From: Octopus vulgaris
Taxonomy: Eukaryota
DNA: 64,000 nucleotides
Assembly: GCA_951406725.2 (NCBI GenBank)
Contig: OX597822.1
Coordinates: forward strand, 10,044,001 to 10,108,000
Reading direction: 5' to 3'
The notes beneath the pieces were generated by a model that was not told where the DNA came from, searched no databases, and was given only the letters and a program-made list of their open reading frames with translations. Shown here one piece after another: positions 7,460 through 63,765 of this stretch (positions within the stretch are counted from its first letter, which is position 1; each line of letters starts with the position of its first letter). A program made the translations under genes and the position numbers.

Positions 7460-7709
7460 TACAGTTCTATATTTAAGAGATGAGGAATTATGTACATTAT
7501 TTACATTATTTACAATTGACGGATATTTGTCCCCATCTTGTTTGTTGTTACCACGACGTTTCGGCTGATCAACCTTCATCAGGTGTCTTGGAGAAATTTT
7601 GAACCTGGGTTTTCATTCCTACGGTATTTTTCAATGTTGGTATTATTATTGTTATCATTATTATTATTCAGGTCACTGCCTGGAATCGAACTCGGAATCT
7701 TGGGGTTAG
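7460..7709 (-). mobile_element. Inverted partial copy of the tRNA-(AAT)n-hammerhead short element
   Basis: Reverse complement matches 7768-7816 joined to 11190-11260 and continues through a hammerhead core. Confidence 0.8.
7552..7586 (-). ncRNA. Minimal type I hammerhead ribozyme motif
   Basis: Minus strand acac-CTGATGA-a-ggttgatcagcc-GAAA-C-GTC-gtg: intact core, stem II GGTTG/CAGCC, palindromic ACGT stem III, stem I CAC/GTG. Confidence 0.7.
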
Positions 7710-7733
7710 GTTTTCTACTACACCAGCAATAAC

Positions 7734-7809
7734 GGACATATGGCGCATTGGTTAAGAGCACGGGCTACTAACCCCAAGATTCCGAGTTCGATTCCAGGCA
7801 GTGACCAGA
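7734..7809 (+). mobile_element. tRNA-like head of short element (5' half, split by LINE)
   Basis: A box TGGCGCATTGG, anticodon-like arm GGG-CTACTAA-CCC, B box GTTCGATTCC; resembles tRNA-Ile(AAT); acceptor stem is poor, so not a functional tRNA. Confidence 0.75.
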
Positions 7810-7890
7810 ATAATAATAATAATAATAATAATAATAATAATAATAATAATAATAATAATAATAATAATAATAATAATAATAATAATAATA

Positions 7891-10800
7891 TTGACCCAAC
7901 TGAACTACGTGAACTAAAGAATCAAATGATGATTGCATGGCTGAAACTTAAAGAAACCTATTTGGATGAACGCGATACACTCCCGAGAATCTGCAACTCT
8001 AACCAAAACATGAAAATAATTGGTAAAATCCGGCTTGCACTTAAGGATATAATTTCAGCTAATGATGTTAATATCACAGATCTCAACCACCTGTACTATG
8101 CATCCGCAAAAATCTCAACGATCATATGTGGTGAAAAGATTAGAAAATGGCAACATTCCCACAAAAAGCCTTCTTAGCAAGAGTGTATCCAACATCAAAT
8201 TAAACTACTTAGGTCTGACATTGAATTTTTGAAAAACCTTAAGGTTGACAAGACTACCAAACCTACAAAAACCCAAAAATTAAAGAAAAAATATATGAAA
8301 ACTATACTTGATATTGATGCCACCATAGAAACCATCAAACAAAAGGCATCTGCGAAAGCAGCCTGCATAGCGAGGTATGAAAAGCGTGTTAGATTCTTCA
8401 GGGACAACAACATGTTCAAAAATAACCCCAAAAATGTTTACAGGAAGATAGGGAAAACACCAGTTACTGTAAAGTCTGTACCATCAAAAGCCGAAGTGCA
8501 CGGTCTTTGGAATTATATTTGGGCAGAAGAAAAAACACACAACGAAAAAGCCCCTTGGATTGATAGAATAGCTACGGACTTGTACTCCTTAGAAGGGCAA
8601 AAGTGGGTGGGTGTCAAGGTAGAAGATGTAAGATCTGCTCTCAGGAGGTCAAGCAAATGGAAGTCTCCAGGAAAGGATAAAATTCCTAACTTCTGGTTGA
8701 ATACCTTCCCAGAGAGCCATGAACTGTTAACAGAACGTTACAATGATGTTTTGCAACACCCTAGTAGGATGCCTCCTTGGCTAGTTAATGGGTTAACATT
8801 CCTGCTTCCAAAAAGGGAAGAAACAAATGAACCAAAAAACTATAGACCCATAACCTGCTTAACAACTATGTATAAAACACTAACATCTGTCCTGACGGAA
8901 TATACCTATAGTTTTTTGACAGACAGCAGCATATTCCCTAATGAACAGAAAGGATGTAAACGTGAATCCTATGGTTGTAAAGTTCAGCTACTCATCAACA
9001 AGATGATCTTAGAAGATTGTCACAAACGACGCAAAAACCTGTCAATAGCCTGGATAGACTATAAAAAGGCTTTTGATAGCCTACCACATAGCTGGATTAA
9101 GAAATGTCTAGAGATGTACAAAATAGCTCCTACTCTACGAAACTTCTTGTCTGTAAGTATGAAATGATGGAGAACCACACTAACTTTGAACAGTGACGAT
9201 GAATCTCTAAATGCTGGTGATGTAAAAATTTCATGTGGCATTTTCCAAGGCGACTCACTATCACCACTCCTCTTTTGTTTAGCCTTAATACCTCTCTCAA
9301 AATTGCTCAATGACGCAAAGTACGGATATAAAATGTTGGATAAAAATATAAATCATCTCATTTACATGGAGGATTTATTTAAAGCTCTTTGCAATAAATG
9401 ACAAACCACTCAAGGGCTTACTAGCGATAGTCAAACAATTCAGTGACGATATCAGAATGCAATTTGGCCTCGATAAATTTGTAAAAGCTATCTTTATCAA
9501 AGGAAAAATGACAGAAACATTTAACGTTAACCTTGACCAGCAGAATGTCATAAAACAACGAGACCCAGCGGAGAGCTACAAGTACCTAGGGGTAATTGAA
9601 GGGGACGGAATAAGGCATTCAGTGATGAAGGAAAGGGTAAGGAGAGAATGTTATCGCAGAGTAAGAGCAATACTCAAGACAGCTGAATGCGAGAAACAAG
9701 ATCGAAGCGATCAATGCATTAGCCATACTAGTCGTGACTTACAGTTTCAATATCGTTAACTGGTCAATTACTGAAATATGTATTCTTGACAGAAAAATAC
9801 GAAAACTGTTGACAATGTATAGAATGCACCACCCTAAGGCAGATATAGAACGACTTTATCTACCAAAAAAGGAGGGAGGCCGTGGGTTTTTGCAACTGGC
9901 AATAACAATGAAGGTTGCTACAATTGGACTAGACACCTACCTGAAAAACTCTGAGGACTGGATGTTAAAACTTGTCTCAAAACATGAAAACAAGAAAGCA
10001 TCATACTCAGTAACAAAACAGGCAAAGTAATACCTAAGTGAATTCCGAATACAACAAATTCCGGAATTTGACACACAAGAAACAAGCACAGAAAAAGCTA
10101 AGCGCATGAAAACCCGTGCTAAAACTGCGGCCTTAGATATTCTGAATGATAAATGGCAAGAAAAACATCTCAATGGCAAATACCCAAAGAGAGCGAATAA
10201 TGCAGATGTTGACAAAGCCCTTACCCATCAATGGCTAATGGCCTCTGGCTTAAAATCTGACACAGAAGGGTTTATCATAGCAGCTCAAGATCAATGCCTA
10301 CCAACAAGGAACTACCAGGCCAACGTATTAAAGAACGGTAGTAGCCCAACATGTCGAGTATGTCAACAACAAAATGAAACCATTGATCATGTTGTCTCCA
10401 AGTGCAGTCTTCTGGCGCCTACAGAGTATCTCAACAGGCATGATAGAGCTGCACAATATATTCACTGGATAATCTGCAAAAACGTGGATTTACCACATGA
10501 AAAAAACTGGTGGGAACACTAACCACCTCCAGTGCTTGAAAATGACCACATCTCACTCCTCTGGAACTTCCCCATTCAAACTGACAGAAAGATAGAAGCA
10601 AATAGGCCAGACGTCATATTGAAAACTTCAGACAAAAAACATGGCTCCTCATTGATATGACTGTCCCAATCGATATAAACGTATCAGTCAAGACCTACCA
10701 AAAACTGAGCAAATATAAAGATCTTGAAATAGAAATCAGCAAAATGTGGAAGTTGAAGACTAAAATAATACCTGTTGTCATAGGTGCCCTGGGAATGATA

Positions 10801-61747: not shown

Positions 61748-62699
61748 TATAACTTCAAGGACAATAATTTTTTCGAAGTAGGTATATATAGAATCCTAAG
61801 GAGATGGGAAAAGTTGTTGATGTTGATGGATTCTACTTTGATCAATAAATAAGTATTATACATAGGTACATAGGTTTCCCTTATTCATTTCTTAGAGGCC
61901 ACATGCATTTATATAAAAAATAGGACCACAGAAAATGTGGATTTTTGATGAGGAGTAAAAATATTATACTAATATTTTATTTACTTATTTATATTCATAA
62001 AATAAGGATAAAAATCACGTTAATGATAATTATCAAGTAGTCAGCATGGAAATAAGCAGTTTATATATTAAATTAATAATTATATATATATATATATATA
62101 TATATAATTATTTTAAGTGAGAAGGTCAAAACAAGAACTTATCTCCTCCATACTGAATTAATGTCTAAACATTACGAAGCTATCAAAAGTAAAATCCATA
62201 AATACATGCAATTGAAAGTGGGCTAGTGAGAAGATATTTGAAAAGACTCCACATTAATTGTGAATTAGCTAATTTTCAGATTAAAATCTTAAATAGGTTT
62301 TCTTCTATTTTTAGCACAAAATATCTAAAAATTTACGAACAAGTGTTAATACATACCCATAACAAAGTGAGTTTGCACATCTATACACAAACACTTGCAA
62401 GTATAGATTCGAAAATGTCAGGTTAAAATACTCACACGACGACCACATGTATTTCTATCTAAAATAGGACCGCAGACATTGCGGGTTTTTGATGAGGAGT
62501 AAAAATATTATTCTAATATTTTAATTATAATCATAAATATATTGCTCTGAAGATAGAAGAAAATCTATTTAAGATTTTAATCGTGAAATTAGGTAATTCG
62601 CAATTAGTGTGGAGTATTTTTAAATATCTTCCCACTAGGCCGCTTTCAATCGAGTGTATTTATGGAGTTTTTTCGGTAGCTTCTTAATGCTTGGACATT

Positions 62700-63024
62700 A
62701 ATTCAGTATGGAGGAGATAAGGGTTGGCCCCTTATCTCCTCCATACTTCCTAGGCTTGGCCCCGTGTGACTTTTGCCTATTCCCAACTCTCAATAAAACA
62801 CTCAAAGGGCGAAGATTTGAGTCAGCAGAAAGCATTATGCAAAATTCGACGGCACAACTCTACAGCATCCCAAAAGGGAATGTTTTCAGCAGTGGCAGGA
62901 ATGCTGGCAAAAGTGTATACACTCACAAGGGGGATATTTTCAAGGAGACTAAATCAAAATTTTGAGTTTTTTTTAATATTACTTGTGTTTTGGCCAAAGA
63001 TCGGATACTTTTTGGCCACACCTT
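62700..63024 (+). mobile_element. Mariner 3' fragment
   Basis: PPYFLGLAPCDFCLFPTLNKTLKGRRF then TIR-like CGGATACTTTTTGGCCACACC. Confidence 0.8.
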
Positions 63025-63114
63025 AGCAATCTATCTATCTATCTATCTATCTATCTATCTATCTATCTATCTATCTATCTATCTATCTATCTATCTATCT
63101 ATCAATCTATCTAT

Positions 63115-63765
63115 ATTCTTTTATTTGCTTCAGTCATTTCACTGCAGCCATGTTGGAGCACCGCATTTAGTCGAAGAAATCAATCCCAGAACTTATTCTT
63201 GTAAGCCTAATACTTATTCTACCGGTCTTTTTTGCTGAACAGCTAAGTTTCGGGGACTTAAAATCAAGCGATGGCGGGACAACAAACACACACGCACGCA
63301 CACACACACACACACACACACACACACACACACACACACACACACACACACACACACACACACACACACACACACACACACACACACACGCGCACACACA
63401 CACATATTTATATAAAGTTAATCCAAACATGAAAACACAACAACGCGAGGACGTGGAACAAGTATAGTCTTATTGGACGCCCAGGAAAGGAAAGAAAGAA
63501 GGAGGACTTAACCTTTCGAGCGGAGCTCTCTGTCAGAAACATAGGAAAAGGAAAGATCCAAGGAAGGGAAGACGGAGGAAAAAAATAATCGCCAACGATA
63601 CACACGCGGTCACATATACAAGGGGCTTCTTTCAGTTTTCGTCCACCAAATCCACTCACAAGACCCAAGGCTATAAGAGAAGACACTTGCCCAAGGTTCC
63701 ACGCATTAGGCCTGAATCCGGAACCATGTGGTTGGAAAGCAAGGTTCGGACCATATACCTACGCC
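63115..63765 (-). mobile_element. Type 1 SINE carrying an H2 element (63417-63613) in its internal microsatellite
   Basis: SINE 3' half ends in (CA)n/TA at 63416 and the 5' half resumes at ~63620; insert matches 32435-32640 with a mutated core (CTGACAG..GAAAGGTT). Confidence 0.85.

What the first reader, a model, noticed from the sequence alone, without database searches (positions are those of the whole stretch)
7552..63613. Assemblage of hammerhead-ribozyme short retroelements in microsatellites
Seen: about eleven hammerhead-shaped motifs from six or seven short non-coding families. Cores look intact at 7552-7586, 32505-32539, 42602-42685 and 55418-55544, and variant or decayed at 15624, 17050, 31590, 41647, 42908, 53871 and 63510. 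Stem sequences differ between families while pairing and the CUGANGA/GAAA/NUH core are kept, and stem III is a short palindrome (ACGT, ACATATGT, ACAGCTGT). Established: minimal type I hammerheads with palindromic stem III, active as dimers, mark Penelope-like element LTRs and non-autonomous retrozymes. Inference: this genome hosts a radiation of non-autonomous PLE-mobilised ribozyme elements favouring (TA)n; a decayed PLE at 29420-31040 shows the machinery lineage exists. I cannot tell whether these particular families are already described.
Basis: partly seen in the sequence, partly recalled or inferred. Interest (0 to 1): 0.75.

Follow-up and report, generated by a model that had tools for sequence, protein, structure and literature searches.

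The report
Ribozyme tails of Penelope-like retrotransposons
The hammerhead-shaped motifs are real and are the tail ends of seven abundant Penelope-like jumping-gene families in what is likely an octopus genome, a known arrangement; one family carries a tRNA-like segment that may act as its own promoter, three carry altered ribozyme cores, and self-cutting is untested.

Summary
Observation largely confirmed: four canonical cores (4 versus 0.1 in shuffles), three family-fixed core variants, four decayed copies. Interpretation partly wrong: these are not independent non-coding families. Each of the seven is collinear with the 3' end of an ORF-bearing Penelope-like element (PLE) elsewhere in the genome: one Penelope/Poseidon-type (A), two Neptune (B, C), one Neptune/Nematis-type (D), three Hydra (E, F, G). 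Window copies are 5'-truncated ends or solo pseudo-LTRs, often with PLE-type inversions, and do not end at the predicted cut site. This is what Cervera and de la Pena (2014) described; one octopus PLE hammerhead is already listed by Craig et al. (2021). Three points go beyond what I found in print: family A has a tRNA-like head with A and B boxes fixed in the PLE 3' UTR, where most short copies begin; B and C copies start at one sharp point, 30-40-fold above upstream sequence; C, D, E and part of B carry fixed non-canonical cores (A6U, A9C, U4C). The scan earlier noted PLE-mobilised retrozymes in this genome and tRNA-headed PLE passengers in other genomes, not family A. No cleavage or RNA evidence.

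The parts
7462..7730 (-). Family A copy (Penelope/Poseidon-type PLE 3' end): degenerate tRNA-like head, (AAT)n, hammerhead, complete 3' end; left arm of a head-to-head pair
7551..7586 (-). Family A minimal hammerhead, canonical core plus extra A, stem III ACGU; 8-base stem II deletion versus family
7735..7808 (+). tRNA-like head (A box and B box) of the right arm of the family A pair
   Evidence: weak Rfam tRNA match on another copy, 12.1 bits, E=5
7891..11108 (+). LINE with frameshifts inserted into the (AAT)n of the right arm; likely Dong/R4-like (label from recalled motif and target preference)
   Evidence: RVT_1, zf-RVT
11109..11260 (+).
   Evidence: 88.8% to 7574-7653
15558..15750 (+). 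Family C solo pLTR (Neptune PLE 3' end) in (TA)n; hammerhead 15624-15661 with family-fixed A6U core
17030..17175 (+). Older family C copy, decayed hammerhead
29420..31040 (+). Very decayed single-copy PLE ORF remnant, CxCx5C linker (Hydra-type) at about 30556; unrelated in DNA to the seven families
31466..31731 (-). Diverged relative of family D with inverted arm; core CUGAAGA but GAAA lost
32435..32640 (+). Family B solo pLTR (Neptune PLE 3' end) before (TA)n; canonical hammerhead 32505-32539
41608..42380 (-). Family E 5'-truncated copy (Hydra PLE 3' UTR and pLTR); hammerhead 41647-41707 with family-fixed U4C core
42575..42730 (+). Family F copy (young Hydra PLE 3' end, 99-100% to other copies); canonical hammerhead 42603-42685, long stem II loop, stem III ACAUAUGU
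42769..43062 (-). Family D copy with inverted arm (PLE with CX4CxxC linker); hammerhead 42907-42951 with family-fixed A9C core and non-palindromic stem III
53841..53993 (+). Family G partial copy, broken in stem III
55206..55673 (-). Family G copy (Hydra PLE 3' end) with short inverted arm 55589-55673; canonical hammerhead 55418-55544, 92-base stem II loop, stem III ACAGCUGU
63404..63615 (-). Older family B copy, decayed hammerhead 63506-63540

Best explanation
The motifs are the hammerheads that lie in the 3' pseudo-LTRs of seven ORF-bearing Penelope-like families, and the window's short elements are the 3' ends of those families, likely inserted by each family's own RT and GIY-YIG endonuclease from RNA that the ribozyme had not cut. 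Shown: collinearity with PLE ORFs, fixed 3' ends, inverted arms, (TA)n flanks for the linker-bearing clades, and no ends at the predicted cut site. Inferred: target-primed reverse transcription from the pLTR 3' end; the ribozyme cuts only as a dimer, so a one-ribozyme RNA survives and is copied whole; E and G are ordinary ragged 5' truncations; D and F stop at internal complementarity and fold back; B and C are likely full copies of about 200-base RNAs started at an internal Pol II promoter (initiator-like word, consensus recalled), and A likely of about 290-base RNAs started at its tRNA-like head.
For: ORF upstream on the same strand: A, 29 of 30 ORF-selected loci carry head and/or body downstream; F, 27 of 30; C, 24 of 29 loci besides the query (826-aa RT ORF); E, 8 of 30 tail-selected loci within 1.5 kb; D, 3 independent loci of 30, one with a 621-aa ORF; B, 2 of 4 extended loci, plus a large majority of the 100 listed junction matches continuing into the same UTR; G, 1 of 3 extended loci, RT plus EN. 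Clade motifs follow Craig et al.. Inverted arms: A 29 of 74, D 22 of 33, E 17 of 36, F 22 of 61, G 11 of 31 own-search copies. Alignment starts or ends within 4 bases of the cut site: at most 2 per family for A, B, C, D, F, G. Sharp 5' steps in exact-word counts: C 116 to 3479; B about 140 to 5902; A 194 (ORF end), 452 (junction), 3032 (head start), 5534 (B box), 9103 (body). No stable hairpin at the B or C boundary.
Against: No cleavage, transcript end or promoter was observed. The G link rests on one locus and the B link on two. B and C almost never show inversions (0 of 41, 3 of 69), and short B copies differ at 9 positions from the 9 long copies sampled, although that sample was picked by a subfamily-specific word. 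The retention correction for A word counts rests on 3-11 of 30 loci per word. No element with a direct 5' pLTR was recovered, so the promoter inference is indirect. The E histogram is swamped by microsatellite hits and the A histogram partly so.
Confidence: 0.8

Rival explanations
1. Solo pLTRs of A, B and C are self-propagating non-autonomous elements, transcribed from their own promoter and copied in trans by the parent PLE; A would be a tRNA-headed, PLE-driven SINE. This is the defensible part of the first reader's idea and is compatible with the main explanation.
For: 30-40-fold steps at the B and C boundary, about 4-fold (corrected) to 7-fold (raw) over 17 bases at the A head; 21 of 23 unbiased B copies start 57-85 bases before the core although 1.6 kb of UTR is available; 24 of 26 head-bearing hits in the A-tail loci and 6 of 6 bystander heads start between -20 and +31 of the head.
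Against: No position separates short from ORF-attached copies in C or F; in A only weak indel differences. The same sharp end would arise if the first pLTR of an autonomous transcript were copied in cis. The absence of T-runs in A is shared by its ORF, so it is no sign of Pol III.
Confidence: 0.35
2. The sharp 5' ends come from reverse transcriptase stalling or folding back at short palindromes in full-length PLE RNA, not from promoters; the tRNA-like head of A is a passive old insertion.
For: Inverted arms of A, D and F join at short internal complementarities; in A the junction keeps a palindrome present in the parent UTR; A and B boxes are no better conserved among copies than flanks (0.87 and 0.92 versus 0.90-0.91).
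Against: B and C have the sharpest ends but no hairpin and almost no inversions; several A copies without a mirrored head also start at the head.
Confidence: 0.35
3. Several motifs no longer cut: A6U (C), A9C (D) and U4C (E, part of B) cripple catalysis, and the fold is kept only as an RNA element, or not needed at all.
For: A6C gave kobs below 0.1 per min and U4C lowers activity in vitro (PMC3088659 passages); PLE minimal hammerheads cut poorly (PMC4209133); 8 of 9 Xenopus dimers did not cut; D has no palindromic stem III; families with altered cores are abundant.
Against: In C the rest of the core and both stems are kept while position 7 takes all four bases (45 A, 24 U, 10 C, 9 G), the pattern expected of a selected hammerhead; stem I changes on both sides between B and C.
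Confidence: 0.3
4. Classical non-LTR retrozymes: tandem 170-400-base repeats with no coding parent that make circular RNAs.
For: Similar size and type I topology; a three-copy tandem of C in L155 and a two-copy one in L178.
Against: All seven have coding parents; copies are dispersed monomers or inverted pairs; hammerheads are of the minimal PLE type.
Confidence: 0.05

Closest known systems
Minimal hammerheads of metazoan PLEs (Cervera and de la Pena 2014, PMC4209133; parts 1-2 of 4 read, one supplement searched, the other not available)
   Same: Type I, extra base between 9 and 10.1, palindromic stem III, many consensus families per genome, mostly single motifs from truncated PLEs, pairs on opposite strands 100-700 bases apart.
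   Different: No octopus entry in the text or the searched supplement; the core variants seen here (A6U, A9C, U4C) are not in the parts read; F and G have 42- and 92-base stem II loops.
Neptune, Hydra and Penelope/Poseidon PLE clades, including Hydra-1_Obim of Octopus bimaculoides (Craig et al. 2021, PMC8557442; passages, section 11, supplement passages)
   Same: RT plus C-terminal GIY-YIG, clade linkers (CX2-5CxxC, CxCx5C, none), (TA)n targets, inverted 5'-truncated neighbours. Hydra-1_oBim has a listed hammerhead with a centre-A palindromic stem III like family E, and its RT resembles E by eye.
   Different: The listed hammerhead differs in sequence from all seven here; no tRNA-like UTR segment in the passages seen.
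Non-LTR retrozymes as PLE derivatives (Cervera and de la Pena 2020, PMC7229834, passages; Li et al. 2026, bioRxiv 10.64898/2026.07.22.740005, parts 1-3 of 5)
   Same: Short hammerhead units related to pLTRs; monomers are described as dispersed.
   Different: Defined by tandem units and circular RNA; the families here are dispersed ends still attached to ORFs in many loci.
Schistosome Sm-alpha/Sj-alpha SINE-like elements (through review PMC6765202, passages; primary papers not held)
   Same: Pol III promoter followed by a hammerhead, as in family A.
   Different: Tandem repeats with a canonical ribozyme and no shown coding parent; family A's head sits inside an ORF-bearing PLE.

Membership tests
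EN+ Penelope-like element 3' end | RT plus GIY-YIG ORF upstream on the same strand | tested here: met
   All seven families; counts in best explanation; G one locus, B two
EN+ Penelope-like element 3' end | Hammerhead near the 3' end, inside the pLTR | tested here: met
   Core lies about 110-380 bases before the fixed 3' end
EN+ Penelope-like element 3' end | Inverted 5'-truncated neighbour | tested here: met
   A, D, E, F, G frequent; B 0 of 41, C 3 of 69
EN+ Penelope-like element 3' end | Full-length copy with direct pLTRs at both ends | tested here: inconclusive
   D has an inverted pLTR upstream of its ORF (L285, L286); no clear direct pair in the extended loci
Neptune / Hydra / Penelope-Poseidon clades | Clade linker motifs and RT similarity | tested here: met
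   B, C: CX4CxxC, 72% RT identity to each other; E, G: CxCx5C; F groups with E, G (40-48%); A no linker; D CX4CxxC, clade left as Neptune/Nematis-type. No tree with reference sequences was built
Minimal type I hammerhead | CUGANGA, GAAA, UH with stems I and II | tested here: met
   A, B, F, G canonical; C, D, E differ at one core base
Minimal type I hammerhead | Palindromic stem III for dimer formation | tested here: inconclusive
   Met for A, B, C, F, G; one mismatch in E; not met in D
Minimal type I hammerhead | Self-cleavage as a dimer | not testable with these tools
   Needs an in vitro assay
Rfam hammerhead families | Score above gathering threshold | tested here: not met
   0 matches in the window
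Non-LTR retrozyme | Tandem units, each with a hammerhead, no coding parent | tested here: not met
   Coding parents found; tandems in 2 of 30 C loci, not seen as the rule in other families
Non-LTR retrozyme | Circular RNA | not testable with these tools
   Only assembled contigs were available
tRNA-derived SINE (family A) | tRNA-like head with A and B boxes at the 5' end | tested here: met
   Boxes read directly from the majority (box consensus recalled); Rfam tRNA positions 8-63, 12.1 bits, E=5, weak; ARAGORN none in the window
tRNA-derived SINE (family A) | Pol III transcription and independent lineage | tested here: inconclusive
   Step in copy number at the head but no clear diagnostic substitutions; transcription untested

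The most novel reading that the evidence does not exclude
Family A is a SINE caught at birth: a tRNA-derived Pol III promoter was captured into the 3' UTR of an autonomous Penelope-type element, 30 bases after the stop codon, and its short head-to-tail transcripts, carrying an uncut dimer-dependent hammerhead, were copied some 20,000 times by the parent enzyme. This would be a PLE-driven SINE with its parent in hand and a model for the origin of schistosome Sm-alpha; B and C would be Pol II counterparts, and C would show that an A6U hammerhead core is under selection.
Probability: 0.3. Interest if true: 0.65.

Novelty: new member of a known kind. Interest (0 to 1): 0.38.

Why it matters
The main result is ordinary: PLE ends with minimal hammerheads are expected, and PLEs are reported at 6.8% and 190 families in Octopus vulgaris (PMC13282606 supplement). 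It corrects the idea of a new ribozyme-element radiation. What remains useful is a natural test set for an open question, whether PLEs need their ribozyme to cut (stated as unclear in PMC8557442): seven parent-linked families, some with long open ORFs, carry canonical and altered cores side by side. Family A offers a direct test of whether a PLE can drive a tRNA-headed SINE.

Tried and rejected
Chance: rejected by shuffles. Rfam scan by E-value was swamped by microsatellite hits and only 150 of 358 rows were shown; none at gathering. The window's decayed PLE as partner: single-copy. Cut site as element boundary: not seen. Lack of T-runs as a Pol III sign in A: the ORF lacks them too. Better conservation of A and B boxes: not seen. 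Monomer folding z-scores were weak, -2.2 to +1.1, as expected for small dimer-type motifs, and were not used. A first profile search for the decayed PLE was contaminated by microsatellite peptides and was redone after dropping 4 of 13 rows. RNA: no RNA holder listed; contig overlays cannot show starts, ends or levels and were not used. The protein atlas gave no result. The random sample stayed at 600 kb, so copy estimates for D-G rest on 1-4 hits. Literature searches found no paper on these families, on a tRNA head in a PLE 3' UTR, or on A6U/A9C hammerhead cores; Lunse et al. (RNA Biol, about 150,000 PLE-linked variants, recalled) and Ferbeyre et al. 1998 were not held and may cover them; Repbase, Dfam, the O. 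vulgaris repeat library, one supplement of PMC4209133 and the bioRxiv supplements could not be checked.
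Full report
Setting. The window is G000:C9:10044001-10108000 in a 2.80-Gb genome of 227 contigs.

Observation. All eleven sites are present. The window is therefore about four to five times denser than that sample. The sites fall into seven families, each with 615 to 3684 first-look candidates. 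Hits of 50 bases or more in the sample were C 16, B 9, A 7, D 4, E 2, F 2, G 1, which extrapolates roughly to 5,000-75,000 copies each (B and C cross-match in part). Three sites called variant or decayed carry their family's majority core: CUGUNGA in 88 of 105 C copies with all four bases at position 7, CCGAAGA in 29 of 41 E copies, CUGAUGC in 26 of 34 D copies; B has CUGACGA (33) and CCGACGA (15) among 64. Stem III self-pairs in all but D.

What they are. Each family continues upstream into a PLE ORF on the same strand. A: 3 of 30 tail-selected loci showed a GIY-YIG end; selecting by that ORF, 29 of 30 loci carry the head and/or the body downstream, 27 the head. F: 27 of 30 ORF-selected loci, about 530 bases downstream. 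C: 24 of 29 loci other than the query, with an 826-aa RT-EN frame at L396. E: 8 of 30 tail-selected loci. D: 3 independent loci of 30, with a 621-aa frame at L285. B: 2 of 4 extended loci. G: 1 of 3 extended loci, RT and EN both present. By the motifs of Craig et al., A lacks a linker (Penelope/Poseidon-type), B and C are Neptune (72% RT identity), E, F and G are Hydra (40-48%), and D has a CX4CxxC linker and is distant from all; no reference tree was built. The remnant at 29420-31040 is an old Hydra-type piece, single-copy, and no partner. In the window the E copy runs 711 bases into its UTR, and 7462-11260 is one head-to-head family A pair with a 3.2-kb LINE in its (AAT)n.

How it likely works. 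Shown: fixed 3' ends, inverted arms in A, D, E, F and G, (TA)n flanks in the linker-bearing families but not in A, and no alignment ends at the predicted cut site (E uninformative). Inferred from PLE biology: priming at the pLTR 3' end and copying toward the 5' end of an RNA that its single, dimer-dependent ribozyme has not cut. 5' ends differ by family. E and G are ragged (own-search copies). D and F peak at 28 and about 78 bases before the core, where internal complementarity joins the inverted arm. B and C are very sharp: exact words just upstream and just inside the boundary number 116 and 3479 for C and about 140 and 5902 for B (9 for the other B subfamily). There is no hairpin there and the boundary falls on an initiator-like word (consensus recalled); Penelope of D. 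virilis has an internal promoter (PMC2377424, passages). I read these as copies of RNAs starting at the pLTR promoter, either the first pLTR of an autonomous transcript or solo copies. No position separates short from long copies in C or F, and the B differences reflect subfamily sampling, so independent non-autonomous lineages are not shown.

Family A. Its parent's 3' UTR reads: stop codon, about 30 bases, a 70-base tRNA-like head with A and B boxes, (AAT)n, then the hammerhead. The Rfam tRNA match is weak (12.1 bits, E=5). Exact-word counts rise from 194 at the ORF end and 452 at the junction to 3032 at the head start, 5534 at the B box and 9103 in the body; corrected for word retention in 30 ORF-attached loci these are about 1,500, 4,500, 18,000, 21,000 and 25,000, a noisy correction. 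So most copies begin at the head. Pol III initiation fits; so does fold-back at a short palindrome there. Two supporting tests failed: T-runs are absent from the ORF as well, and the boxes are not better conserved than flanks.

Comparison with the literature. Cervera and de la Pena 2014 (parts 1-2 of 4; one supplement) describe this picture: many families of minimal hammerheads per genome, mostly single and probably from truncated PLEs, some in opposite-strand pairs, weakly active as dimers. Craig et al. 2021 list a hammerhead for octopus Hydra-1_oBim (supplement). Li et al. 2026 (parts 1-3 of 5) derive retrozymes from pLTRs. An O. vulgaris annotation reports 190 PLE families and mentions no ribozyme in text or supplement; the giant squid genome paper counts 235 Hammerhead_1 hits. 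Natural A6C and U4C cores are known and slow. Sm-alpha joins a Pol III promoter to a hammerhead (review passages). My searches found nothing on these families, on a tRNA head inside a PLE UTR, or on A6U and A9C cores, but Lunse et al., Repbase and Dfam could not be seen. Earlier scan notes report PLE-mobilised retrozymes and rewired Naiad hammerheads in this genome and tRNA-headed PLE passengers in other genomes; none matched family A by sequence. I did not test them.

Verdict. Real, well above chance, and mostly explained: new members of a known kind. Interest 0.38, carried by the tRNA-headed family A, the promoter-like ends of B and C, and the family-fixed core variants, all awaiting RNA and cleavage data.

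Noticed in passing
window 7891-11108: LINE with RT and zf-RVT hits inserted into the (AAT)n of a family A copy; the same nesting is seen in L049, L053 and L227, so A's (AAT)n serves as a target for TAA-seeking LINEs.
   Followed up: partly
window 41608-43138: Three different PLE ends (E, F, D) and a SINE fragment are packed into 1.5 kb around shared (TA)n tracts; F and D sit tail to tail.
   Followed up: partly
L299:8500, L324:7940, L330:913, L345:9826-9881: Further canonical hammerheads outside the seven families in the random sample, one as an inverted pair; more PLE families are likely.
   Followed up: no
L283:2245-3567; L284: The young family F parent has an asparagine-rich insertion of about 130 residues where the Hydra linker would be.
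   Followed up: no
L395-L399: Family C parent ORFs run on past the endonuclease into a long proline/serine/leucine-rich frame over the pyrimidine-rich UTR without a stop (frames of 714-826 aa).
   Followed up: no
window 4734-5309, 60472-61642: Decayed mariner-type transposase frames (motifs recalled).
   Followed up: no
window 46109-48074, 50309-50560: More fragments of the same TAA-associated LINE as at 7891-11108.
   Followed up: no
window 25972-26709: Tandem array of a 174-base SINE-like unit, 3.4 copies at 93% match.
   Followed up: no
L287 (G000:C3:166366500-166376499): Family D pieces repeat at about 2.25-kb spacing, probably inside a local tandem duplication.
   Followed up: no
L290:2440-5736: 1099-aa intact RT plus restriction-like endonuclease ORF beside a family E parent.
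   Followed up: no
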